A DNA stretch of 64,000 bases from a virus. The DNA lies in the IMG/VR virus record IMGVR_UViG_3300014911_000001, positions 64,001-128,000 of that record; one strand, written 5' to 3'. The position numbers and the translations under genes were made by a program. The notes under the pieces were generated by a model, which saw nothing but the letters and a program-made list of their open reading frames with translations, had not been told where the DNA came from and ran no database searches. Positions 2,031-12,052 of this stretch are shown here, piece by piece. How positions within the stretch are numbered: position 1 is the stretch's first letter; each line of letters starts with the position of its first letter.

Positions 2031-2081
2031 GCCCGCCATTAAATCGAAGCGCGCAACCCGGCGGGCTTAGGTCGCGCGCTT
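2031..2081 (-). ncRNA. H-type pseudoknot upstream of RBS
   Basis: S1 AAGCGCGCGACC/GGUUGCGCGCUU, loop UAAGCCCGCCG, S2 GCCCGCC/GGCGGGC. Confidence 0.75.
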
Positions 2082-2088
2082 ACTTTTT

Positions 2089-2760
2089 TTATTCCACTTT
2101 ATTGACCCAGTCGGCTTTGGCATACGGCTTGCCGTTTATATACCACCTCTTCTCGGACGTTATGAGCACGGTTTCATAGCGCTCAAGTAGGTAATCGTTA
2201 CGCTCCCTTACCACGACAGCTTTAGGCTCAGGGATGATGGCATCGGTACCATGTGGAGGTGTGGGAGGGAAAATTGAAACGAGCTGACGTGGAAGGATGA
2301 CAAGAGAAAGGTGTTTGCCTTTCTGTTTGATGCGACTCCTGATGGTCTTCTCGAGACCCTTCTCGACGATTACGTAGCCATACGAATCCGCAGCCTCCTG
2401 GGCGAGTGTGTTCGCCATTTTATTCCCTGTTCTGGCTGTGTGTTTTACAATAACCTCCTTATGCTGGTTATCAGCGTAGTACCTAGCCAGCTCATATAAT
2501 TCCATAAGCTCAGGCTTCTTAATATCATATTCTTGGTTAAACTGCTTCACCACTAACTGTGAGTCGCTGTGTATTGTGGTATCACCCTGGATGTACTGGC
2601 TAATGTATGTCGCAAGAACTAGTGCTGCCCATTCAGCCTCGTTGTTTGTTGCCTCCCCAATGGGTATTGATAGTGATATACCAACCTCCGGAATATATAT
2701 CCCAATCCCAGCGGGACCGGGATTGCCTTTTGATGAGCCATCAATGTAAATGTTAGTCAT
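2089..2760 (-). CDS. rnhA: ribonuclease HI-like protein with C-terminal extension
   Basis: [40 protein letters not shown] motifs. Confidence 0.9.
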
Positions 2761-2774
2761 AATACCTCCTTTAT

Positions 2775-3197
2775 TTATGGTTTAACTTTTCGTAAGCCGA
2801 GGCAACCTATCGGTCGTATGCTTCCACTGCTGGTCTTTTCATATACAGGATGAGCAATCGTGTATAACTTGTCTACGTTAGGTAGGTTGAGAGCAACTGC
2901 TGCAGAAGCATATTGATTACTAACAATTATTATATCAGCATCATCAGGGATGGGATCAATATCCTGTATCCTCTGTGTTATAACTGGGATCATAACCTCA
3001 CCGTTCACTGGACATTCGTAAAGGATGCTCGGAAGGAATTCGGTTTCATGGTGGACATTCAGAAGGATTCCGGAGGGTGGAATTATGGTAACTAGCTTGG
3101 TTTTTTCAGGCTCTATGAAGTATTTCCTGTGCTCACTTATGTAAACGGCGTCCTCAAAAATACATATCTCGTGAGGAGTGCAGTTTAAGATTTTCAT
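2775..3197 (-). CDS. conserved phage hypothetical protein (NxTPH type)
   Basis: ILNCTPHEI start and IIVS..IGCLGL end; SD present. Confidence 0.7.
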
Positions 3198-3219
3198 TAC
3201 ATACCTCCTTTTATTAGGC

Positions 3220-3279
3220 GGGCCTCATTACACCACCATGCAGAGCAGCAGGGCGAGGCCCTTAACCCTGAAGCTCTGC
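3220..3279 (-). ncRNA. H-type pseudoknot upstream of RBS
   Basis: S1 GCAGAGC..CAGGGU/GCCCUG..GCUCUGC, loop UAAGGGCCUC, S2 GGGCCUC/GAGGCCC. Confidence 0.7.
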
Positions 3280-3294
3280 GAAGAAAGAGAGCTA

Positions 3295-3627
3295 TTAGGA
3301 CAAGCGTTCTGCTTCCTGTCTAATCCGAACGGCATCCCTTACTACCTCTAACAGCGAAGGCGGTATAACCCTATTGTTCGAGGTTTTCCCAGTGCGCAAA
3401 TCAACTGCGACAGCACAATCATGCTCGTAAAAGTATACTATATCCCCATCCGGGAAGAATGTTCCATTAGCAGTAGCAACATTATAAATCAGATCGTTGG
3501 TGTATTCGCCGGGATCGCGATATGGTGTATAATGATCCTGAGCGTCCGGTGTTTCACAACCGGTAGTGCTTCTCACACATACATCACACCTGCCACTTCT
3601 ACACAGACGGCACTTATCAAATAACAT
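3295..3627 (-). CDS. hypothetical protein with N-terminal Cys cluster
   Basis: CxxC-x4-CxxC; SD present. Confidence 0.65.
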   Translation of the reverse strand: MLFDKCRLCRSGRCDVCVRSTTGCETPDAQDHYTPYRDPGEYTNDLIYNVATANGTFFPDGDIVYFYEHDCAVAVDLRTGKTSNNRVIPPSLLEVVRDAVRIRQEAERLS

Positions 3628-3654
3628 GATAACCTCCTTATTTTAATGTTTTAT

Positions 3655-3706
3655 GCCCGCCATTAACCAAGCCAGCAAGGACCGGCGGGCTTAGCCCTCA
3701 CTGACT
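3655..3706 (-). ncRNA. H-type pseudoknot upstream of RBS
   Basis: S1 AGUCAGUGAGGGC/GUCCUUGCUGGCU with G-U pairs that fix the strand, loop UAAGCCCGCCG, S2 GCCCGCC/GGCGGGC. Confidence 0.75.
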
Positions 3707-3726
3707 ATTAATTTCCAACTAATTGA

Positions 3727-4095
3727 CTACACAAGTGACGGGCCGAGGGCATCCTCTATTTTGGGACGCCCATACTCAACCTTCCACCCATTTTTAGGCG
3801 GAAGGTTGCGGACCCACCAGTCATACCACTGGCGGTCCATCACCTTTATAAGTTTGGATCGCTTGAAAAACACAGCGATCCACTTCCTTCTTCCCCCAGA
3901 ACGAGGGGAGAAAAACCATATAATCTCATTGGGTCGCACCTTGCCTGTTTTAACAAGATGCGACCACTGCGACCCAGTATTCACATTCTGGGCCGCTAAA
4001 ATAAACTCGTAATGGTTGCGCCACCTTTCGATGGCGCTCTCCCCGGATAACAACTTGGGGAGGTTGATTCTCAAGAAGTTAGTTAATGATAACAT
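3727..4095 (-). CDS. hypothetical basic, Trp-rich protein
   Basis: Start re-called to MLSLTN after GAGGAGGTG SD. Confidence 0.7.
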   Translation of the reverse strand: MLSLTNFLRINLPKLLSGESAIERWRNHYEFILAAQNVNTGSQWSHLVKTGKVRPNEIIWFFSPRSGGRRKWIAVFFKRSKLIKVMDRQWYDWWVRNLPPKNGWKVEYGRPKIEDALGPSLV

Positions 4096-4119
4096 AATAC
4101 ACCTCCTCTTTTGGAGGTT

Positions 4120-4177
4120 GCCTGCCACTTTTACCCACAGATAAGGCGAGGCCGGCAGGCTTAACCCCGCCTTATCT
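4120..4177 (-). ncRNA. H-type pseudoknot upstream of RBS
   Basis: S1 AGAUAAGGCGGGGU/GCCUCGCCUUAUCU, loop UAAGCCUGCCG, S2 GCCUGCC/GGCAGGC. Confidence 0.75.
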
Positions 4178-4285
4178 TACTACTCCAGCTCATTGACTCC
4201 ATCACGAGCCAACAAGCCGGCCAAACCCTCCGTCACCCTCGCGGCACCGCTCCTCGCAGGCCGCACACAGGGGAGGAGGGCTTGG

Positions 4286-4353
4286 GGAGGCCTCTTAGAC
4301 CCTCTGTCGAGGGAGCTCCAGCGCCACGCCAAGGCGGGCCTCCAGTGCTGGAG
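4286..4353 (-). ncRNA. HDV-like ribozyme fold, copy D
   Basis: P1 CUCCAGC/GCUGGAG, P2 GGAGGCC/GGCCUCC, P3 GCC/GGC, L3 UUGGCGU, P4 CCCUC/GAGGG, J4/2 UCUAAG. Confidence 0.8.
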
Positions 4354-4403
4354 TAGCCCCCGGCACGGGGGCTTCATTCTTTTTTCTCTCCACCTCCTTT
4401 CTA

Positions 4404-4457: not shown

Positions 4458-6857
4458 TTAATCGAGCTTCCAGAAGTTGAGCCAAAATTCGCGATCGGCA
4501 TTAGCAAGAGGATGAAGACCAGCAGGAGTTGTAATCCTAAGAAGCCGCGCGATTTCCCAGTTTCGCTTCCGACCAGTATGAAGTTCCACAAGAAATCTCA
4601 CATGAGATTCAAGTTCAGATTCGGTACCAGCAACAATTGCAAGGAAGTCGTTCTCAGCAACGGTAAGAGATTTCCAAGTGGTAAGAATTGCCTGAGGTTC
4701 AAACGCAGCAAGAAGTTTACGGAATCGCCGGTTGAGTCTCCGGAAGTTCCTAGTAAGAAGTATACGTAGCTCAGCAATCCTGCTGTTGAGGAAGCGCCTA
4801 CGCCGATCCAGTTCCCGTCTCCTATTTTTGAGGGTAGCCAGAGCATCGGATAGGGTATTAAGCCTAGGTAGCAGCCACTTTTCCATTTTCTGCCTCAGAA
4901 CTTCGTTTCTGATCCCAGATACTAGGAACCTGACTTTAGTTTCAGGTTTCGCATTAGCGAAGAGTCTCCGGCTCCGATTAACTACCGTATCAACCGCCGT
5001 CACTTTCTCCGCAAGAGCATTCACTTCATTTTCTATCTTCCGTATCCGAGAGAGCATCCGTCCAAACATGCGCCTCCTTATGCGATCCCACTTGAGGAAC
5101 AATGCCTTAACTTCTGGATCAATGGTGCCATCAGGAATAAGATCCTTAAGAGACCTAACTTCTGGCTCAGCAAACTTAACTTCAGGAATAAATTCAGCAA
5201 GAGGACCTGTCGGAGTTATGGCTGCTGGATCAGCTTTCGCGGTTCGGTTAGTGATCATTTGAGTAATAGTATCAAGCCTGGCAGTCGTACTCGCGAGTAG
5301 ATGCAGTCCCGCTTCTACCTCATGACGAAGCTCCGGTTCTTTACCATTAGCAAGATTCACCGCAGCTTGGAATAGCGCTCCAGCTTTCGCAATAAGATCC
5401 ACATTAATCTCAGTATCAGAAAGAAGCATCCTAGTGAAGCCAGCATCTGCCCGTGCGATCATCTCCTTCCCTAGCTCAATATTTTCCACTTCAGTACTAG
5501 GATCCATTCTCCACTTCCCGAAAGAGATTTCTTTTATCTTGCTTCGTATGCTATCGAAGAATTCCTTAGCAACAAGAGGCTCCTTGAAGACCTTGGATGC
5601 CGCGGCGAGAGCCACTTTGTCGCCATCGGCATCCCATCCGCTAGGCATATCTGCAGGGTGTACCAGAATCGCATGCGCACGATGGTCAACAATAATAGGA
5701 AGGATAAGAGTATCACCAGGCAAGATGGGCGACTTCTGTATGAGTAGGAGTTCTCCATCTTTCAGACCAAGCATACGTGCAATCACAGGAGGAATAACAG
5801 CAGTGCCGGGATGTGCATTCTGAAATCCCAGATAGAAGCCCGGGCCTAGTCTCAACTTCCGAAGTGCGATCTTTAAGTGGTCCAGAAGCACTCTCCGCAG
5901 GAAGCCTGCCTCCTTTATGAGGCCGAATTTCCGCAGAATATCAGCAGTCAGAGTCAGCACTGCACTAGGTTCATTGATCGGATCAGCGTTTTTAACAAGG
6001 ATATCAGCCGCTACCTCAGGATCAGAAAAACCATTAATAGCTTCAGCAATCTGCTCCTGAATCCGTTCAACAAACTCAGGCGCTGGATTAACATTCCATC
6101 CGAGTTTCCTTGGCAGAAGGAACCAGCGCGGCAGAGCTTGGCTGAGACTGATGCCACCCGCGAATACGGCACCAACCTCATGCAGCATGATGGTTCGCCC
6201 GAGTTCGAGTACGAAGCGCCGCCTCTTGATGAGTTTTGCGGTGTCAGCATCAGCGACGATATCAGTCCCTGTCTCTATCTCAGTAAGAACTTTATCAGCA
6301 AGAACCTCATCTCCCAGATACAACATCAGCCTCTGGAACCCGACTCTGCCGGGAAGAACTGGTACCGCTATCCCTTTCAGTCCAATAGCTGTAATCTTAA
6401 AACCACGTTTAATAAGAGCACGAGTTACCGCAGGGATATCAGCTTCTGTAGGAGCATGAGCACGCGCAACCAGCTCTGTAAACCTCTCGGACACGAAGAA
6501 AATTCCGTCTACACCCATTTTAGCATCGAGCTTGAGGCCGCGAACATCCACATTAGCCACTCGCTCAGGTTTAAAGTGCCAGCCCTTATTTGGGATCTCC
6601 GGAGTTGTCATCATCTGAATTCGCTTACCAGGAAGAGTTCTCAGATCAAATCCGTGATCGCCGAGGATATCTGCAATCACCTTATTAACCTTATCAATAG
6701 CAGAAGCAGGAACTACTCTAAAGACCCGACAATCAGGAACCATGGTTGGTTTCATTGGAAGATCAGAGTTCAGATCAGGATCAAATGCGAAGAAGACACT
6801 AGCACCAGCTTCAGCGAATAGAATAGCAAGAGGAGACTTCGGTATTCTTTCCATCAT
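4458..6857 (-). CDS. single-chain double-psi-beta-barrel RNA polymerase (YonO/cRdRP-like), ~799 aa
   Basis: Ordered motifs GVDGIFFVS (DG), GLKG (KG), IQKSP ([RK]xP) and catalytic GWDADGDK (DxDGD); start re-called to 6857 after AAAGGAGGTG. Confidence 0.75.
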   Translation of the reverse strand: MMERIPKSPLAILFAEAGASVFFAFDPDLNSDLPMKPTMVPDCRVFRVVPASAIDKVNKVIADILGDHGFDLRTLPGKRIQMMTTPEIPNKGWHFKPERVANVDVRGLKLDAKMGVDGIFFVSERFTELVARAHAPTEADIPAVTRALIKRGFKITAIGLKGIAVPVLPGRVGFQRLMLYLGDEVLADKVLTEIETGTDIVADADTAKLIKRRRFVLELGRTIMLHEVGAVFAGGISLSQALPRWFLLPRKLGWNVNPAPEFVERIQEQIAEAINGFSDPEVAADILVKNADPINEPSAVLTLTADILRKFGLIKEAGFLRRVLLDHLKIALRKLRLGPGFYLGFQNAHPGTAVIPPVIARMLGLKDGELLLIQKSPILPGDTLILPIIVDHRAHAILVHPADMPSGWDADGDKVALAAASKVFKEPLVAKEFFDSIRSKIKEISFGKWRMDPSTEVENIELGKEMIARADAGFTRMLLSDTEINVDLIAKAGALFQAAVNLANGKEPELRHEVEAGLHLLASTTARLDTITQMITNRTAKADPAAITPTGPLAEFIPEVKFAEPEVRSLKDLIPDGTIDPEVKALFLKWDRIRRRMFGRMLSRIRKIENEVNALAEKVTAVDTVVNRSRRLFANAKPETKVRFLVSGIRNEVLRQKMEKWLLPRLNTLSDALATLKNRRRELDRRRRFLNSRIAELRILLTRNFRRLNRRFRKLLAAFEPQAILTTWKSLTVAENDFLAIVAGTESELESHVRFLVELHTGRKRNWEIARLLRITTPAGLHPLANADREFWLNFWKLD

Positions 6858-6871
6858 ATCACCTCCTTTCC

Positions 6872-6998
6872 GCCGCGGATTTCGTTGCCCTCGGTGCGGC
6901 ACTCCGAGGGTCGCCGGGCTTCGAGCGTCATTGGTGCCAAGGCTGGCCATAGAATGAAGCCCGGAAATTCCATGGCCATGGCCGGGCGCCTCAGCACC
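6872..6998 (-). ncRNA. two tandem pseudoknots in the RNAP 5' leader
   Basis: PK-a: GGUGCUGAGGC/GCCUUGGCACC plus UGGCCAUGGAAU/AUUCUAUGGCCA, loop CCGGGCUUC pairs GAAGCCCGG. PK-b: CCCUCGG/CCGAGGG, loop GCCGC pairs GCGGC just before the SD. Confidence 0.7.
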
Positions 6999-7042
6999 TC
7001 TGCCCTCTTTTTATCCATTCTTTCTTACCTCCTTTATAAATA

Positions 7043-7121
7043 GAGGGACTCTTAGGCCCTTAGGCTATTGACCTAAGGGAGCCCCGGCGCCACGACAAGG
7101 CGGTCCCTCAAAAAGCCGGGG
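7043..7121 (-). ncRNA. HDV-like ribozyme fold, copy C
   Basis: P1 CCCCGGC/GCCGGGG, P2 GAGGGAC/GUCCCUC, P3 GCC/GGC, L3 UUGUCGU, P4 CCCUUAGG/CCUAAGGG, J4/2 CCUAAG; begins directly after the upstream UAA stop. Confidence 0.8.
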
Positions 7122-7589
7122 TTAACTCAATTTGACATCATTATTATCCTTCTCTTTCTTTATCCACTCTATCAATTCATCCACTAGGCGCTCCACATTA
7201 TAATCATCAATAATAAGAAGCGCCCTCCTGACCTTGTAGCCGAGCACCTCATGCGCTTTTAGCACATGCCTCGGCATCCAAGGCCAGGTCTCATTGTATC
7301 CCCCATTATATTTGATTTGGAGAAGGATTACCTCCTTCTTATGGGGGATACCAATGCTGACGTCGATTTTAAATACGACGTCAGCTTTACTCCCGATAGG
7401 ATAGTCTATTAATTTCCATCCCGCCGGAAGCTTGGAGGATAGTTCTTCAATGAATCTATCCTCCGCTTCGAAGCCAGCTCTATGCGCCTCATGTGCGATA
7501 GAGCTAACCTCGAAATCCGGGCGGATTATTTCATGACATTCCGCCCAGAATTTTCGCGCTATAGTGCGGGCATGCGTTTCCATATCCAT
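7122..7589 (-). CDS. hypothetical protein, possible PD-(D/E)xK nuclease fold
   Basis: G.EAE...D...KID...LLQIK pattern; SD present. Confidence 0.5.
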   Translation of the reverse strand: MDMETHARTIARKFWAECHEIIRPDFEVSSIAHEAHRAGFEAEDRFIEELSSKLPAGWKLIDYPIGSKADVVFKIDVSIGIPHKKEVILLQIKYNGGYNETWPWMPRHVLKAHEVLGYKVRRALLIIDDYNVERLVDELIEWIKKEKDNNDVKLS

Positions 7590-7601: not shown

Positions 7602-8177
7602 TTACTCGACAAGAACATGATATATTCCATTTATTTTCTTTACTTTCCTTACTCTAAATAAACATTTATCCACAATTACTTCCTCTTCTTCACAATAAGG
7701 TTGCAAATTCAACAATCTCCCCTCTGCTTTAGTCATAAATACAACAGGAACTACATCAGGAAAATTATATCCTTCCCACAAATCCGGGTCATCAAACTCG
7801 TTATCATAACTTCTCTTTTTTCAAATTGCGAAGCGCTTTGCAACTGCATAACGCCTCGTCCAACTCATATTGATAGATATTTTCCTCCCTATCTGAGGGA
7901 TAGCATATACAACATCCCCTCTGAATAATAGTGATCTTACCTTAGGACACCCTAATAACGATATTTTTAAGGCGAGCTTAGAAATATAGATACCTCTCCC
8001 CTTCCACATTCTCAGCAAAGCGATCCTATTGTCTTTTGAAAATATCCCGCACAAAATTCTCAGCTTTTTCAATAACAGCTTGTATTTCATTTGGAGATGG
8101 TTCAGCTTTATTTCCCAACTCCTGTAAAAAACATTCCTTTTAGGATCTTTAATGAATAACGAAATGACCCACCACAT
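7602..8177 (-). pseudogene. ~191-codon ORF interrupted by one in-frame TGA at 7821-7823
   Basis: The frame continues KKRSYDNEFDDPDLWEG...HVLVE to TAA at 7602, next to the following SD. Confidence 0.6.
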
Positions 8178-8193
8178 TGTTACACCTCCTTTT

Positions 8194-8299
8194 GCCCGTA
8201 TTAGTTTACCAAGGGCACCATCTGACCTGCGGGCATTGATCAGACGGTGCCTATGTTACAAAACGGGCACCGTATAGTCATGGTAACAATACGGTGCCC
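8194..8299 (-). ncRNA. two tandem H-type pseudoknots upstream of RBS
   Basis: GGGCACCGUAU/AUACGGUGCCC with loop UGUUAC pairing GUAACA; GGCACCGUCUGA/UCAGAUGGUGCC with loop GCCCG pairing CGGGC. Confidence 0.7.
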
Positions 8300-8318
8300 T
8301 CACAACATCCCCTTTTAT

Positions 8319-8396
8319 TAGGGTGCTCTTAGACCCTTAGGGATTGGACCTAAGGGAGCCCCTCCACCACGTCAAGGTGGCACCCTATCGGAGGGG
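8319..8396 (-). ncRNA. HDV-like ribozyme fold, copy B
   Basis: P1 CCCCUCC/GGAGGGG, P2 UAGGGUGC/GCACCCUA, P3 ACC/GGU, L3 UUGACGU, P4 CCCUUAGG/CCUAAGGG, J4/2 UCUAAG. Confidence 0.8.
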
Positions 8397-8449
8397 TAGC
8401 AAGGCCATCATGTGAGGCCTTGCTTTGGCTTGGGCGGCACCTCATCATC

Positions 8450-8746
8450 TTACACATAAAAGCGATCCAACCCCTCAATATGAGGGGTTGTTTTGCTCTC
8501 CCTATCAACGATGTACAAGTTAGTCCCTATCCGAAATATGTCATGATACTTACACGCCTCCGGCTCCACAATAAGCTCTGCATCCTCAGGTATATATCCA
8601 ACCCATCCTTTGTACAAGCACCTCCGCACTAAGACATGAGTAAAACAGCTGGAATCAACAAGTGTAAGTCTATCATCATCATCATCGTAAATTCCGATAT
8701 ACCAGTAGTTATCTCTCACCAAGACTTTAATGACTTTTACCGCCAC
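8450..8746 (-). CDS. hypothetical protein (98 aa)
   Basis: GTG start at 8746 after AAAGGAGG; the upstream extension in the ORF track is structured RNA. Confidence 0.7.
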   Translation of the reverse strand: MAVKVIKVLVRDNYWYIGIYDDDDDRLTLVDSSCFTHVLVRRCLYKGWVGYIPEDAELIVEPEACKYHDIFRIGTNLYIVDRESKTTPHIEGLDRFYV

Positions 8747-8760
8747 GATAAACCTCCTTT

Positions 8761-8820
8761 CGCCGCACCTCAGTTCAGCCCCCGACACGCATGCGGTGCG
8801 GCATTTACATACGTGTCGGG
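8761..8820 (-). ncRNA. H-type pseudoknot abutting the SD
   Basis: S1 CCCGACACGUAUG/CAUGCGUGUCGGG, loop UAAAUGCCGCACCG, S2 GCCGCACC/GGUGCGGC. Confidence 0.8.
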
Positions 8821-8836
8821 ATGCCGCCCAAGCCAT

Positions 8837-8907
8837 CGGACGCTCTTAGACCTAGCCACAAGGCTAGGAGCCCCTCCACCACGTCAAGGTGGCGTCCGTC
8901 GGAGGGG
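8837..8907 (-). ncRNA. HDV-like ribozyme fold, copy A
   Basis: P1 CCCCUCC/GGAGGGG, P2 CGGACGC/GCGUCCG, P3 ACC/GGU, L3 UUGACGU, P4 CCUAGCC/GGCUAGG, J4/2 UCUAAG. Confidence 0.8.
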
Positions 8908-8956
8908 TAGCAAGGCCATGCGAGACCTTGCTTTGTCTGCGGGGGCACCATGAATA

Positions 8957-9190
8957 TTATAACTCTGATGGACGGGGCCTCTGTAACGATTCAAAATATA
9001 GCGATAAAGCCTCCATGAATGTCACAGGAATCCCTTTTTTCTTATACTGGAATGGAGGCGCCGGAACATTACCCAGCACCTCCTTTGTTATTTTTATTGC
9101 AATGTAACCTCTAAGTTCCTTAAACCGGTATGTCTTGATTTCACCATTATTATAAATGGTGATAGCATTCACGTTTTTTGACATCCTCAT
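8957..9190 (-). CDS. hypothetical protein, first gene of the leftward operon
   Basis: AAGGAGG SD, 77 aa. Confidence 0.7.
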   Translation of the reverse strand: MRMSKNVNAITIYNNGEIKTYRFKELRGYIAIKITKEVLGNVPAPPFQYKKKGIPVTFMEALSLYFESLQRPRPSEL

Positions 9191-9206
9191 TTTATCCTCC
9201 TTTTTC

Positions 9207-9266
9207 GCCGCGCCTTGGTTCTACGCCCAGCATGTACGCGGCGCGGCATTTACGCACATGCTGGGC
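9207..9266 (-). ncRNA. H-type pseudoknot abutting the SD
   Basis: S1 GCCCAGCAUGUGCG/CGUACAUGCUGGGC, loop UAAAUGCCGCGCCG, S2 GCCGCGCC/GGCGCGGC; covaries with 8761-8820. Confidence 0.8.
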
Positions 9267-9544
9267 TGGCGCCCCCGCAATCCCCTATTAGCCGAGGAAG
9301 CAAATCAAAAATCAAGGGGGCAGGGGGGTCGAAATACAATCCGACCCCCTCAAAATCCACAATAGAGACCTCCTGAATTTTTTGCCGATTTCTTGACCCT
9401 TATGGACCTCCCTGTAGACTCATTCCGACGGGGTACCTTGCGGCATAGGGAGGTGTTCTATGAGGTTGTTGGTTGGACTGGATATGGGCTTGTGATGGTT
9501 ATTGTGTTAGGGTCTGGGGGGTGTGGGACCTCTTGTGGGCTTGT

Positions 9545-9720
9545 TTGTGACTATGTGGGTTGGTGTGGGCTACCCCTTTTCGACCCTATGGGTCTGCTCT
9601 CTATAAGGCTTCCTGCTTCAGCGAGGGATAGCTAGGCTTATGTGAAGCCCCCGCCAGAGCCCTCTCCACAGGCATAAGTTCGGGCCGCCCCGGCCCTACC
9701 ACCCGTGAGGTGGGTGAGCC
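9545..9720 (-). ncRNA. TnpB omega-RNA (reRNA) scaffold plus putative guide
   Basis: GGGGCGGCCCGAAC..GCCUGUGGAGA..UCGCUGAAGCAGGAAGC..GGGGUAGCCCAC matches the IS200/IS605 right-end RNA pattern; the guide would start at 9564 (ACCAACCCACAUAGUCACAA). Confidence 0.8.
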
Positions 9721-9759
9721 CATTTTTTGTGATGTATGTTGTGTGTATGTTAGCATTTT

Positions 9760-10203
9760 TTATATACCTGTGCTACCGAATCCATTTTGGTTGCGTGTTG
9801 TGGGTGTTACATCATTGACAGGTTCGAATTCGCATGGATGTATTCGTGATATTATTATTTGGGCTATTCTATCGCCGTCTTTTATGGTAATGTTTTTGTT
9901 ACCGAGGTTGATGAGGATGACCATTATTTCGCCTCTGTAGTCGCTATCTATGGTTCCTGGTGAGTTAAGGACCGTTAGTCCGTGTCTGAGTGCTAGTCCA
10001 CTTCTTGGGCGGATTTGTGCTTCGTAGTTGTTGGGTAGTTCTAGTATGAAGCCGGCCGGTATGGCTTTATATTCACCCGGGTGTAGTGTTATGGGTTTTT
10101 GGAGTCTTGCGAAGATGTCGTAGCCTGCTGAACCCGGGGTCATTTTTCTTGGCATTGTACCGCCGGGCAGAAGTTTTAGTTTGATTTTATTAGTGTTACT
10201 CAT
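9760..10203 (-). CDS. dut: dUTPase (trimeric)
   Basis: SAGYDI, RPRSGLA, GTIDSDYRGE, GDRIAQ, RNQNGFGSTG; exact start uncertain. Confidence 0.95.
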   Translation of the reverse strand: MSNTNKIKLKLLPGGTMPRKMTPGSAGYDIFARLQKPITLHPGEYKAIPAGFILELPNNYEAQIRPRSGLALRHGLTVLNSPGTIDSDYRGEIMVILINLGNKNITIKDGDRIAQIIISRIHPCEFEPVNDVTPTTRNQNGFGSTGI

Positions 10204-10432: not shown

Positions 10433-10824
10433 TTTATCTCCTTATTGTTTTTATCGTTGAAATATGTTTTTCTAAATTCCTCTAGGATAGGTTCATCACC
10501 TGTACCATAGAGGACGGCGTGCATCCATTCAGTTACTTGATCTGCTGTATGGTGTGGAAATACATCCTTCATGCATCCGAAGTATTTTTGCCAGTTGGTT
10601 GGTTTAGGTTTTTTATGTTCTTTTATAGTCCATTTTTTGGTAGCTGTGGCGGATCCGTAGGTTGTGAGGATGAGGCCTATAATTATTATTATTATGGTGT
10701 ATGTAGTGGGATTATTGGTGTAGTGGTGGAGGAGGAAGCCGGCCGCAGTGGTAAGGAGGCCCCAGAATCGTTTGCTTTTCCAGAAGGGTTTGGTGTTATT
10801 ATTGTTATTATCGTGTGTGCTCAT
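10429..10824 (-). CDS. membrane protein, holin-like N-terminus
   Basis: KPFWKSKRFW followed by two TM segments. Confidence 0.55.
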   Translation of the reverse strand: MSTHDNNNNNTKPFWKSKRFWGLLTTAAGFLLHHYTNNPTTYTIIIIIIGLILTTYGSATATKKWTIKEHKKPKPTNWQKYFGCMKDVFPHHTADQVTEWMHAVLYGTGDEPILEEFRKTYFNDKNNKEIK

Positions 10825-12052
10825 TTTGGATCTCCTTTATGTTATGAAGCCCGCGCTTCAGTATATTAATACTTGCATTATAATCTCTATCGAGGGTTGC
10901 ACCACAGAACGGACATTTATGTATACGATCGTGGAGTGATTTGGGTACCTTATGTCCACATGAGGAGCATGTCTGCGTAGTATATGCTGGGTTAACCTTG
11001 ATGACCTGTGAGCCGTGAAGCCGCGCCTTGTAGGATGTTAGATTGATAAGTGTGTTCCATCCTGCATCGTAGATGTATTTAGAGAGGTGAAGCCGGCGGC
11101 GCTTGCTTACAAGATCACGTATTTTTATATCCTCGAATATAATAATATCATAGTTAGTAGCAAGCTGGTGTGAGATATGATGGAGGAAGCCGCGCCGCAT
11201 GTTAGCTAATCGTTCATGGAGTCTGGCTAGTTTACGCCTCTGTTTCATATAATTAGCACTCCCTCGCTGCTTGCGCGAGAGCTGTTTTTGTACACGCTTT
11301 ATACGTTTTTCGAGTTTGGTGATGAAGCGCGGGTTAGATACAATATTACCATCACTTGATACGATGAGATTCGTAAGCCCGAGATCTATACCGATGATGC
11401 GCTGCTTATTATTAGTATCGATAACGATAGTAGCGTCATTATTATTGGGTACTTCAACTGTTACATATACATACCATCTACCGCTGGGATGTCTTTTTAT
11501 AGTAACATTTTTGGCTTTAGTCCAGTCGATGGGTCGGTGAAGGCGGATTTTTAAGCCGCCGAGTTTGGGTAAATGAATATATGCGAACTTATCATTCAGT
11601 TTCTCAAATTTAATGACAGGATACCCATCCGGATAGTTTTTATGAGTCATCCAAACTTGTGGATATGTAAGTGATAGATATTGATCAGGTTTTTTGGGTT
11701 TAGGCGGACTTATATGTCCTTCTTTATTCCTGATGGCTACAAAGAAACGCTTATATGCCCAGTCAATCTTATCAATTATAGCCTTTAAGACACCTGAATA
11801 AACGAGCCTTAAGGCAGGTTCCTCTCTTTTAAATGCGGTTAGGTTACGTTGCCTCTCAAATTTTGTAGGGGTTCTATGTTCTTCATCCCATATACGTCTG
11901 TATTCATTTATTTCGTAATTATAGAACCAGCAGAGGATGGACAGCCAGTTTTCTAGTTTGTATTCTTGTAGTGTTGTTGGATAGGCTCTGAATTTGTAGG
12001 TGAGGTAGGAAGCCGCCGCCTTATCAGTATTTTTTGATCCCTGTTTATTCAT
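10808..12052 (-). CDS. tnpB: IS200/IS605-family TnpB RNA-guided endonuclease (no TnpA nearby)
   Basis: YKFRAYPT, RuvC-I GIDLG, RuvC-II FEDI, TTQTCSSCG/CPFCG zinc finger, RuvC-III DRDYNASINIL. Confidence 0.95.
   Translation of the reverse strand: MNKQGSKNTDKAAASYLTYKFRAYPTTLQEYKLENWLSILCWFYNYEINEYRRIWDEEHRTPTKFERQRNLTAFKREEPALRLVYSGVLKAIIDKIDWAYKRFFVAIRNKEGHISPPKPKKPDQYLSLTYPQVWMTHKNYPDGYPVIKFEKLNDKFAYIHLPKLGGLKIRLHRPIDWTKAKNVTIKRHPSGRWYVYVTVEVPNNNDATIVIDTNNKQRIIGIDLGLTNLIVSSDGNIVSNPRFITKLEKRIKRVQKQLSRKQRGSANYMKQRRKLARLHERLANMRRGFLHHISHQLATNYDIIIFEDIKIRDLVSKRRRLHLSKYIYDAGWNTLINLTSYKARLHGSQVIKVNPAYTTQTCSSCGHKVPKSLHDRIHKCPFCGATLDRDYNASINILKRGLHNIKEIQNEHTR

What the first reader, a model, noticed from the sequence alone, without database searches (positions are those of the whole stretch)
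8397..9279. Repeated gene-cassette grammar: arm, pseudoknot, SD, ORF, complementary arm, hairpin, ribozyme
Seen: two unrelated small ORFs sit in the same RNA frame. ORF 9190-8957 is enclosed by arms 9279-9268 and 8949-8938 (UGCGGGGGCGCC/GGUGCCCCCGCA). ORF 8746-8450 is enclosed by arms 8835-8822 and 8439-8426 (14 perfect bp). The arm sequences differ between cassettes but each pair stays complementary. Each 3' arm is followed by an AGCAAGG..CCUUGCU hairpin and then the predicted cut site. Inference: a modular expression cassette that loops each ORF out as a closed domain. The shared flanks could also promote swapping of early genes by recombination.
Basis: partly seen in the sequence, partly recalled or inferred. 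Interest (0 to 1): 0.85.

Follow-up and report, generated by a model that had tools for sequence, protein, structure and literature searches.

The report
Ribozyme-framed, swappable phage gene cassettes
A large uncultured phage wraps each of several small genes in the same folded-RNA frame (closing stem, pseudoknot before the ribosome site, end hairpin, probable self-cutting RNA), and related phages carry different genes in identical frames, so it looks like a natural plug-and-play expression cassette.

Summary
Cassette A (9280-8908) and cassette B (8835-8397) share one order. It runs 5' arm, 14-bp hairpin whose loop pairs just upstream of the Shine-Dalgarno (H-type pseudoknot), ORF, complementary 3' arm 6-9 nt after the stop, AGC..GCU hairpin, one A. 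An HDV-like double-pseudoknot element follows.

Every helix covaries in relatives. There are four arm types, and cognate arms pair over 12-16 bp against 4-8 bp for non-cognate ones. Pseudoknot helix S2 is 100% paired with three compensatory pairs. Nine different ribozyme P1 sequences are all 7/7 paired.

About ten related metagenomic contigs carry 0, 2 or 3 cassettes. Three unrelated ORF families sit behind the same arm-1 leader. Window-to-relative identity is 98% up to the ATG, absent across the ORF, and returns at the 3' arm. Frames are 89-96% identical, while ORF synonymous sites are at or near saturation.

Best reading: a self-processing operon of structurally insulated single-gene mRNAs, whose conserved frames also act as recombination crossover points. 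Self-cleavage and any effect on expression are untested.

Ribozyme-flanked variable genes are known for prophage hammerheads. This scan has also noted hairpin-before-cut on other DNA. The closing arms, the pseudoknot leader and this HDV-like variant appear new.

The parts
9281..9409 (-). Conserved upstream region with a possible -10 (TAATAG, 9291-9286) directly before arm-1; probable start of the transcription unit
   Evidence: It is 96-98% identical in L008, L038 and L044-46. In the cassette-less relatives L019/L028, TAATAG is followed at once by leader-3. The promoter role is inferred; the sigma-70 scan found nothing above chance.
9267..9280 (-). Cassette A 5' arm (UUGCGGGGGCGCCA)
   Evidence: Pairs with 8950-8937 over 14 bp including 2 G-U.
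9206..9266 (-). Cassette A leader pseudoknot. S1 is 9266-9253 / 9238-9225. Loop 9248-9240 pairs with 9214-9206 (S2).
   Evidence: On alignment A2, 94.3% of cells are paired and 13 pairs are compensatory. S2 is 100% paired with 3 compensatory pairs. Slid controls pair 26-48%.
9196..9200 (-). Shine-Dalgarno GGAGG of ORF A
   Evidence: Read from the sequence; 5 nt upstream of ATG 9190.
8957..9190 (-). ORF A, 77 aa, family A, no known family
   Evidence: Homologue in L038 at E 9e-20. pN 0.36 against pS 0.79.
8937..8950 (-). Cassette A 3' arm (UGGUGCCCCCGCAG), 6 nt after the stop codon
8909..8932 (-). Cassette A 3' hairpin AGCAAGGUC-UCGCAU-GGCCUUGCU, followed by A8908 and the predicted cut A8908|C8907
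   Evidence: The stem covaries in relatives: AGCGGGGUC/GACCCCGCU, AGCAGGGCC/GGCCUUGCU, GCAAGGCCCC/GGGGUCUUGC.
8837..8907 (-). HDV-like element Rz1. P1 is CCCCUCC/GGAGGGG, P2 is CGGACGC/GCGUCCG, L3 is UUGACGU, J4/2 is UCUAAGA, candidate catalytic C8849.
8820..8835 (-). Cassette B 5' arm (UGGCUUGGGCGGCAUC)
   Evidence: Pairs with 8441-8426 over 16 bp including 1 G-U.
8761..8821 (-). Cassette B leader pseudoknot. S1 is 8821-8808 / 8793-8780. Loop 8803-8795 pairs with 8769-8761 (S2). SD at 8757-8753.
   Evidence: The G-C of cassette A becomes A-U here (loop GCCGCACC / GGUGCGGC).
8450..8746 (-). ORF B, 98 aa (GTG start), family B. Confident all-beta model without a structural match.
8426..8441 (-). 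Cassette B 3' arm (GGUGCCGCCCAAGCCA), 8 nt after the stop codon
8398..8424 (-). Cassette B 3' hairpin AGCAAGGCC..GGCCUUGCU, followed by A8397 and the predicted cut A8397|C8396
8319..8396 (-). HDV-like element Rz2. P2 is UAGGGUGC/GCACCCUA, candidate catalytic C8332.
7043..7121 (-). HDV-like element Rz3 (outside the finding). Its predicted cut lies directly after the UAA stop of ORF 7122-7589, with no hairpin.
4286..4353 (-). HDV-like element Rz4 (outside the finding), preceded by hairpin AGCCCCCG-UGC-CGGGGGCU and one A

Best explanation
The minus-strand unit starting near 9290 is probably transcribed as one long RNA. Four HDV-like self-cleaving elements then cut it into single-gene or few-gene messages. 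This step is inferred from the fold, not shown.

Each small-gene message is built as a closed, nuclease-poor module:
- A 12-16 bp GC-rich helix between its 5' and 3' untranslated ends loops the AT-rich ORF out as one domain.
- The 5' arm stacks directly on a 14-bp hairpin. The loop of that hairpin pairs just upstream of the Shine-Dalgarno sequence, giving every cargo the same initiation context.
- The 3' end left by the cut would be a stable hairpin carrying a 2',3'-cyclic phosphate.
- The next message would begin with the compact ribozyme and a 5'-OH.

Together these features would insulate ribozyme folding and translation initiation from whatever ORF is inserted. They would also shield both RNA ends.

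The frames are far better conserved than the cargo. They are also the places where relatives have recombined, so small genes are exchanged as cassettes. This last part is shown by comparison.
For: Shown:
- Arms, leader S1 and S2, the 3' hairpin and ribozyme P1-P4 all covary.
- G-U outnumbers A-C by 33 to 2 in these helices, so selection acts on the minus-sense RNA.
- Geometry is constant. The stop-to-arm distance is 6-9 nt, the 5' arm abuts S1, and the hairpin ends GCU + 1 nt before P1.
- Frames have 53-62% GC against 38-42% for ORFs. The helices are predicted to remain stable at 75-85 C.
- The L3, J1/4 and J4/2 nucleotides are invariant in 19 distinct copies from about 9 lineages.
- The element lies in sense orientation in intergenic gaps 11-89 nt before the next ORF in unrelated contigs. 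A hairpin abuts the cut in L007 and L021.
- No terminator-like site lies between the cassettes.

Swapping:
- Relatives carry 0, 2 or 3 cassettes.
- Breakpoints fall at the ATG and at the 3' arm.
- Frames are 89-96% identical against 51-69% for the ORFs.
- ORF pS is 0.55-0.79 (window versus L038), while the neighbouring 155-aa gene has pS 0.18 in the same pair.
- One relative carries a ribozyme whose halves match two different parents, 85/86 and 89/89.

Precedent: clustered hammerheads flank single, non-constant genes in prophages and cut in vitro and in vivo (PMC3088659).
Against: - No cleavage, RNA-end or expression data exist for this element.
- The element departs from characterised HDV-like ribozymes. 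Position +1 is C paired with G, not the G-U wobble. The only candidate P1.1 pair is inverted. An extra pyrimidine precedes the candidate catalytic C. No Rfam model matches, even at E <= 10.
- Rz3 lacks the hairpin and the arms, so the full grammar is not obligatory.
- All relatives are metagenome assemblies. Repeats of 34-130 nt could create chimeric joins. This affects cassette order and the chimeric ribozyme. It does not affect ORF-frame combinations, which are checked internally by cognate arm pairing.
- The promoter is inferred only, and 'early' timing is unproven.
Confidence: 0.6

Rival explanations
1. The double-pseudoknot elements do not cleave. They are compact protective or boundary structures, for example blocks to 5'-3' exonuclease or spacers between independently folded mRNA domains. 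The operon would then stay polycistronic.
For: C1-G replaces the G1-U wobble of all characterised HDV-like ribozymes. P1.1 is at best one inverted pair. There is no Rfam hit. Covariation proves a fold, not catalysis.
Against: The single-stranded nucleotides that are invariant across about 9 lineages are those of the HDV/CPEB3 core: 7-nt L3 U-U-G-N-C-G-U and C-U-A-A in J4/2. That mapping rests on my own knowledge of those ribozymes. The exact one-nucleotide spacing between the hairpin or stop codon and P1 is what a 5'-cutting ribozyme predicts.
Confidence: 0.17
2. The arm helix, coaxially stacked on leader hairpin S1 (about 28-30 bp in all), is a processing stalk for host RNase III. This would resemble the leader-trailer helices around rRNAs or the T7 early-mRNA sites. 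The arms would then direct enzymatic trimming, or control decay, rather than merely clamping the message.
For: The 5' arm is continuous with S1, without a spacer, in MFE and centroid folds. Long-range flanking helices that loop out a functional RNA are the classical RNase III substrate (established knowledge).
Against: Each arm helix is only 12-16 bp and tolerates G-U pairs. The ribozymes already separate the messages. A cut in the arms would remove both protective ends. No RNase III-type internal-loop signature is conserved.
Confidence: 0.1
3. After cutting at both ends, the arms bring the 5'-OH and the 2',3'-cyclic phosphate together. A host RtcB-type ligase then circularises each message into a stable circular mRNA.
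For: The ribozyme products carry exactly the end chemistry that RtcB needs (established knowledge). The arms hold the two ends in one junction.
Against: The phage encodes no RtcB or T4-type RNA ligase. Its one ligase is a LigD-like DNA ligase. A circle would recreate the N|C1 junction in front of an intact ribozyme. HDV-type ribozymes need no specific upstream sequence, so the circle should be cut again (established knowledge plus inference). The first cassette has arms but no upstream ribozyme.
Confidence: 0.05
4. The inverted repeats and hairpins act at the DNA level as recombination or transposition sites (integron attC-like, IS200/IS605-like or MITE-like). They would not be RNA structure.
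For: The cassettes are clearly exchanged between genomes. A tnpB gene lies 2 kb upstream.
Against: G-U versus A-C is 33:2, so pairing is strand-specific. The arms differ between cassettes, which site-specific enzymes would not tolerate. S2 pairs a hairpin loop with the pre-SD segment, an RNA-only feature. The genome has no Y1 transposase and no tyrosine recombinase. All elements are in sense orientation, at fixed distances from the SD and the stop codon.
Confidence: 0.04

Closest known systems
Clustered hammerhead ribozymes flanking single genes in prophages (Perreault et al. 2011, PMC3088659)
   Same: Several self-cleaving ribozymes in one transcription unit bracket individual genes. Gene identity is not constant between relatives. 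The proposed role is to process a long phage transcript into single-gene mRNAs.
   Different: The ribozyme class here is HDV-like and cuts at its own 5' edge. Each cassette also has a covarying 5'-3' closing helix, a pseudoknot leader fused to the SD and a hairpin abutting the cut. None of these appears in the passages of that paper that I read.
HDV-like ribozymes (HDV, CPEB3, drz-Fpra-1, phage theta ribozymes; PMC10879173, PMC6765202)
   Same: Nested double-pseudoknot order P1-P2-P3-P1'-P4-P2'. 7-bp P1, 3-bp P3 and 7-nt L3. A C-N-A-A motif in J4/2. Cleavage expected at the 5' end of P1. Phage context.
   Different: C1-G replaces G1-U. The candidate P1.1 pair is inverted (L3 G with J1/4 C). 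One extra pyrimidine precedes the conserved C. It is not adjacent to tRNAs as theta ribozymes are. No Rfam hit.
Phage T7 early mRNA processing by host RNase III
   Same: A polycistronic phage transcript is cut between genes, so each product ends in a stabilising 3' hairpin (established knowledge).
   Different: Here the cut is presumably made by the RNA itself. The messages also carry end-to-end closing helices.
RiboJ-type synthetic ribozyme insulators
   Same: A self-cleaving ribozyme plus a following hairpin placed before the RBS standardises the 5' context of any downstream gene (established knowledge).
   Different: This is a natural, tandemly arrayed system. It uses an HDV-like rather than a hammerhead ribozyme, a pseudoknot rather than a simple hairpin, and an added 3' arm and 3' hairpin.
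Integron gene cassettes
   Same: An array of small, promoter-less, exchangeable single-gene cassettes with structured boundaries whose sequence varies while the fold is kept.
   Different: No integrase and no attC-type single palindrome. The structure is selected at the RNA level. Exchange appears to occur by homologous recombination in the conserved frames.
Leader-trailer processing stalks around 16S/23S rRNA
   Same: A long-range helix between the 5' and 3' flanks loops out the functional RNA as one domain.
   Different: Here the looped-out part is a translated ORF. The helices are 12-16 bp, and ribozymes sit outside the helix.

Membership tests
HDV-like self-cleaving ribozymes | Nested double pseudoknot in the order P1-P2-P3-P1'-P4-P2', with 7-bp P1 and 3-bp P3 | tested here: met
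   Nine distinct P1 sequences are all 7/7 paired; cross-pairings reach 2-6 of 7, except the two near-identical AU-rich types, one cross-pairing of which also reaches 7. All 7 P2 pairs are compensatory. P3 has 1 and P4 has 3 compensatory pairs. 95.7% of cells are paired against 36-50% in slid controls.
HDV-like self-cleaving ribozymes | Catalytic cytosine at the start of J4/2 (C-N-R-A) | tested here: inconclusive
   An invariant C-U-A-A-G-A is present in all 19 copies, but one variable pyrimidine follows P4 before it. PMC10879173 defines the catalytic C as the first J4/2 position.
HDV-like self-cleaving ribozymes | G1-U37 wobble at the cleavage site (G at +1) | tested here: not met
   Position +1 is C paired with G in all 19 distinct copies. 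PMC10879173 places the cleavage site at G1.
HDV-like self-cleaving ribozymes | P1.1 between L3 and J1/4 | tested here: inconclusive
   L3 UUGNCGU and J1/4 CU are invariant. One G-C pair is possible, in inverted orientation. Because nothing varies there is no covariation to test.
HDV-like self-cleaving ribozymes | Match to an Rfam HDV-type covariance model | tested here: not met
   No hit at gathering score in the window, and none at E <= 10 in 7800-9800. These models cannot score the pseudoknots.
HDV-like self-cleaving ribozymes | Site-specific self-cleavage giving 5'-OH and 2',3'-cyclic phosphate | not testable with these tools
   Needs in vitro transcription or mapping of RNA ends.
Ribozyme-flanked prophage gene cassettes (hammerhead arrays) | Several ribozymes in one unit flank single genes whose identity varies between relatives | tested here: met
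   Four elements lie between 8907 and 4286. Six ORF families occur in four frame types across about 10 relatives.
Ribozyme-flanked prophage gene cassettes (hammerhead arrays) | The ribozyme is a hammerhead | tested here: not met
   No hammerhead hit in Rfam. The fold is HDV-like.
Integron gene cassettes | IntI tyrosine recombinase and an attC palindrome at one end of each cassette | tested here: not met
   No PF00589 match in the 175.8-kb genome. The repeats flank the ORF, and pairing is RNA-strand-specific.
IS200/IS605-type mobile elements | Y1 transposase TnpA acting on subterminal DNA hairpins | tested here: not met
   No PF01797 match. The hairpin stems differ between cassettes.
RNase III processing stalks | About two turns of dsRNA formed by flanking sequences and cleaved by RNase III | tested here: inconclusive
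   The arms are 12-16 bp but stack on the 14-bp S1. Cleavage is not testable here.
H-type pseudoknot translational leaders | A hairpin loop pairs with the segment just 5' of the SD | tested here: met
   S2 is 9 bp, 100% paired, with 3 compensatory pairs in 5 leader types. Chance matches to the same sequence pattern in other viral contigs lack S1 and S2.

The most novel reading that the evidence does not exclude
This would be an integrase-free, RNA-defined cassette system. A conserved folded-RNA frame (clamp arms, pseudoknot-SD leader, end hairpin, self-cutting ribozyme) would do two jobs. It would guarantee expression and stability of any small ORF dropped into it. It would also supply the homologous crossover sites through which a clade of vent or hot-spring-type phages shuffles fast-evolving small genes, probably for host takeover or anti-defence. 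It would work like a natural, evolved equivalent of synthetic-biology insulator parts.
Probability: 0.4. Interest if true: 0.85.

Novelty: new variant of a known kind. Interest (0 to 1): 0.74.

Why it matters
- It would give self-cleaving ribozymes in phages a concrete, testable job. Their biological role is still called largely unknown in reviews (PMC6765202).
- It would show a bacterial-type mRNA architecture in which the two ends are held together by design.
- It offers a natural, heat-tolerant, context-independent expression cassette of the kind synthetic biologists build by hand.
- The frames are 89-96% identical while synonymous sites in the enclosed genes are at or near saturation. This is an unusually clean example of non-coding RNA structure being the stable unit and protein genes the exchangeable cargo.

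Tried and rejected
- Rfam at gathering score and at E <= 10 gave nothing for the ribozyme, leader or hairpins. The only near hit was RAGATH-18 at 9610-9672, an unrelated TnpB guide-RNA scaffold.
- MAFFT put the P1 5' strands out of register because J1/2 length varies. P1 was therefore tested by script rather than with the pair-counting tool.
- The leader sequence pattern found 9 other viral contigs. All lack S1 and S2 and are chance matches, so they served as a negative control.
- The ribozyme pattern found one, probably chance, hit in 185,579 cellular genomes. It also gave three false positives among metagenome hits: L020, L030/L032 and L035.
- GenBank phages hold no relative, only a 51-nt match to Rhodothermus phage RM378.
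- Pfam and PHROGs give no family for ORFs A, B, B', C or D.
- The AlphaFold model of family B is confident (pLDDT 87), but Foldseek against the PDB found nothing below E 0.3.
- RtcB and T4 Rnl1 are absent. The weak RNA-ligase hit is a LigD-like DNA ligase.
- No Y1 transposase and no integrase.
- The promoter scan was not above chance.
- L043 ends inside arm-1 and added nothing.
- One script did nothing.
- In one search the L037_68 row is a slicing error, because the contig starts inside that cassette. It should be ignored.
Full report
**Setting.** The window is bases 64001-128000 of a 175.8-kb IMG/VR virus record that CheckV rates complete. Everything described here lies on the minus strand. 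GenBank phages hold no close relative. The only match is 51 nt to Rhodothermus phage RM378.

**Observation.**
- Cassette A: 5' arm 9280-9267; hairpin S1 9266-9253/9238-9225; loop 9248-9240 pairing with 9214-9206 (S2); GGAGG 9200-9196; ORF 9190-8957; 3' arm 8950-8937; hairpin 8932-8909; A8908; then element Rz1 at 8907-8837.
- Cassette B repeats this order: arm 8835-8820; S1 8821-8808/8793-8780; S2 8803-8795/8769-8761; ORF 8746-8450; arm 8441-8426; hairpin 8424-8398; A8397; Rz2 at 8396-8319.
- The repeat finder reports both arm pairs: 14 nt at 100% and 13 nt at 92%.
- None of 2000 shuffles of the 3' flank reaches the observed 14 or 16 bp.
- RNAfold puts the arm helix, stacked directly on S1, and the terminal hairpin into both the MFE and centroid structures. 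Z-scores are -6.8 and -5.35.
- The frames have 53-62% GC and the ORFs 38-42%. Nearest-neighbour energies keep the arms and S1 folded up to 85 C.

**The 'ribozyme'.** One pattern finds four copies in the window and no others in the genome. Scans of viral and metagenomic collections returned about 30 further copies.
- Nineteen distinct sequences share the order P1 (7 bp), P2, P3 (3 bp), L3 UUGNCGU, P1', J1/4 CU, P4, J4/2 YCUAAGA, P2'.
- Nine different P1 sequences all pair 7/7.
- On alignment A1 all seven P2 pairs are compensatory, as are one P3 pair and three P4 pairs. 95.7% of cells pair, against 36-50% when partners are slid.
- This is the HDV-like topology. From my own knowledge of HDV and CPEB3, L3 equals the CPEB3 loop except for one C-to-G change, matched by a G-to-C change in J1/4. 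C-U-A-A corresponds to the C75-G-A-A segment.
- It is not a textbook member. Position +1 is C paired with G rather than a G-U wobble. An extra pyrimidine precedes the conserved C. No Rfam model matches.
- Self-cleavage is therefore a well-founded prediction, not a result.
- In unrelated contigs the element also sits in sense orientation in gene gaps, 11-89 nt before the next ORF. In L007 and L021 a hairpin abuts the predicted cut.

**Arms, pseudoknot and hairpin in relatives.** About ten related contigs carry the same operon (L008, L018, L019, L028, L036-L038, L040, L044-L046).
- Four arm types occur: UUGCGGGGGCGCC, GGCUUGGGCGGCA, GGCCGGCCGGU and GGCUUGGUCCUGCCUU.
- Cognate arms pair over 12-16 bp. 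Non-cognate combinations pair over 4-8 bp.
- Within arm-1 the four observed substitutions are all C-to-U changes opposite G.
- Over all helices, G-U outnumbers A-C by 33 to 2. The pairing is therefore selected in the minus-sense RNA, not in duplex DNA.
- Five leader types give 94.3% paired cells and 13 compensatory pairs. S2, the pseudoknot helix that ends 1-5 nt before the SD, is 100% paired with three compensatory pairs.
- Nine chance matches to the same sequence pattern elsewhere show no pairing.
- The 3' hairpin keeps AGC..GCU, while its inner stem changes in step.
- Spacing is fixed. The stop codon lies 6-9 nt before the arm, and the hairpin lies 1 nt before P1.

**Different ORFs in the same frame.** The cargo falls into families A, B, B' (distant from B), C, D and E.

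| Frame | ORF family | Contigs |
|---|---|---|
| arm-1 + leader-1 | A | window, L038, L044-46 |
| arm-1 + leader-1 | B' | L008, L018, L040 |
| arm-1 + leader-1 | E | L036 |
| arm-2 | B | window, L038, L040 |
| arm-2 | D | L008, L036 |
| leader-b | D or B | see arm-2 rows above |
| arm-4 | B | L018, L037, L045, L046 |
| arm-3 | C | L008, L036, L037, L045 |

- L019 and L028 have no cassette at all. There the conserved upstream region runs straight into the next leader.
- Window versus L008: 98% identity up to the ATG at 9187, nothing across the ORF, and identity resumes at 8950, the 3' arm.
- Window versus L038: frames are 89-96% identical, ORFs 51% and 69%.
- The ORFs are genuine genes, with pN well below pS and dN/dS of 0.1-0.3 where it can be measured.
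- Their synonymous sites are at or near saturation (pS 0.55-0.92 over all pairs; 0.55-0.79 for window versus L038). The neighbouring 155-aa gene has pS 0.18 in the window-L038 pair. The cargo has therefore been replaced, not just mutated in place.
- In L045 one ribozyme is a chimera. Its left part matches the L018 type at 85/86, and its right part matches the L008 type at 89/89. The crossover lies in the shared 34-nt P4/J4-2 block and leaves a P2 with three G-U pairs.
- Caveat: these are metagenome assemblies, and repeats of this size can cause false joins. The fact that every ORF sits between cognate arms is an internal check on each cassette. Cassette order and the chimera still need long reads.

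**Mechanism.** I think the unit is one transcript that cuts itself between genes. Each small message is then a closed module. The arms loop out the ORF. The arm-S1 stack and S2 present the SD in a constant context. The cut leaves a 3' hairpin, and the next message starts with a compact ribozyme and a 5'-OH. The only long single strands left are the translated ORF and the ribosome site. The fold and the exchange are shown. Cutting, protection and insulation are inferred.

**Rivals:**
- A non-cleaving protective fold.
- RNase III stalks.
- RtcB-made circles. The phage has no RtcB or T4-type RNA ligase, only a LigD-like DNA ligase. A circle would also be re-cut by its own ribozyme.
- DNA-level recombination sites. 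The genome has no integrase and no Y1 transposase, and pairing is strand-specific.

**Comparison and novelty.**
- Clustered hammerheads that flank single, non-constant genes in prophages were described in 2011 and shown to cut (PMC3088659). The principle is therefore known.
- This scan also noted hairpin-before-cut in another genome.
- I did not find described the covarying end-to-end clamp, the pseudoknot-SD leader, this C1-type HDV-like variant, or the combinatorial evidence that the frames are the stable, recombining unit. The basis is two literature searches and three papers searched for key passages, not read in full.
- I rate it a new variant of a known kind.

Noticed in passing
window 9610-9672 (-): A sub-threshold RAGATH-18 match (29.3 bits against a gathering score of 44.9). 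RAGATH-18 is the guide-RNA scaffold of IS607-type TnpB (PMC11061315). The tnpB gene (10808-12052) lies about 1.1 kb upstream, with three genes in between.
   Followed up: partly
window 7121-7124 (-): The predicted cut of Rz3 falls directly after the UAA stop codon of ORF 7122-7589. That message would end at its stop codon, with no 3' UTR and no hairpin.
   Followed up: no
window 4354-4400 (-): A strong SD and an ATG (4377-4375) open a frame that runs into the hairpin and through Rz4. The frame is not kept in L008, which has one extra G. It looks like a mini-ORF or decoy start rather than a gene.
   Followed up: no
window 8468-8490 (-): A terminator-like hairpin with a U-rich tail lies inside the 3' end of ORF B. 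The stem is conserved in L038 and L040.
   Followed up: no
L045:2768-2860 (+): A ribozyme whose 5' part matches one parent type (85/86) and whose 3' part matches another (89/89). P2 is left with 3 G-U pairs and 1 mismatch. It is either a natural recombinant or an assembly chimera.
   Followed up: partly
window 6857-7042 (-): The 830-aa ORF (4458-6950, DADGD motif, no Pfam hit) probably starts at the AUGAUGG at 6857. That start has its own pseudoknot-SD leader (loop GUGCCGC / GCGGCG). The listed ATG at 6950 lies inside the structured leader.
   Followed up: no
window 2060-4180 (-): Three further hairpin-loop/pre-SD pairings of a second type (GCCYGCC .. GGCRGGC) lie upstream of genes at about 4160, 3690 and 2066. 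All are on the minus strand, and there are none elsewhere in the genome.
   Followed up: partly
L039:1090-3072 (-), just upstream of the window: A 660-aa ATP-dependent DNA ligase with an N-terminal LigD-type 3'-phosphoesterase domain.
   Followed up: partly
L037, between Rz3 and the polymerase leader: A relative has an Rz3 variant whose P4 starts with U-A instead of C-G. It also has an extra gene inserted downstream of that ribozyme.
   Followed up: no
window 7909-7958 (-): Inside ORF 8177-7821 lie a copy of the GGGGAUGUUGU motif that follows Rz2 and an 18-nt stretch complementary to the 3' end of Rz2 (15/18). Neither is conserved in L038, so this is probably chance.
   Followed up: no
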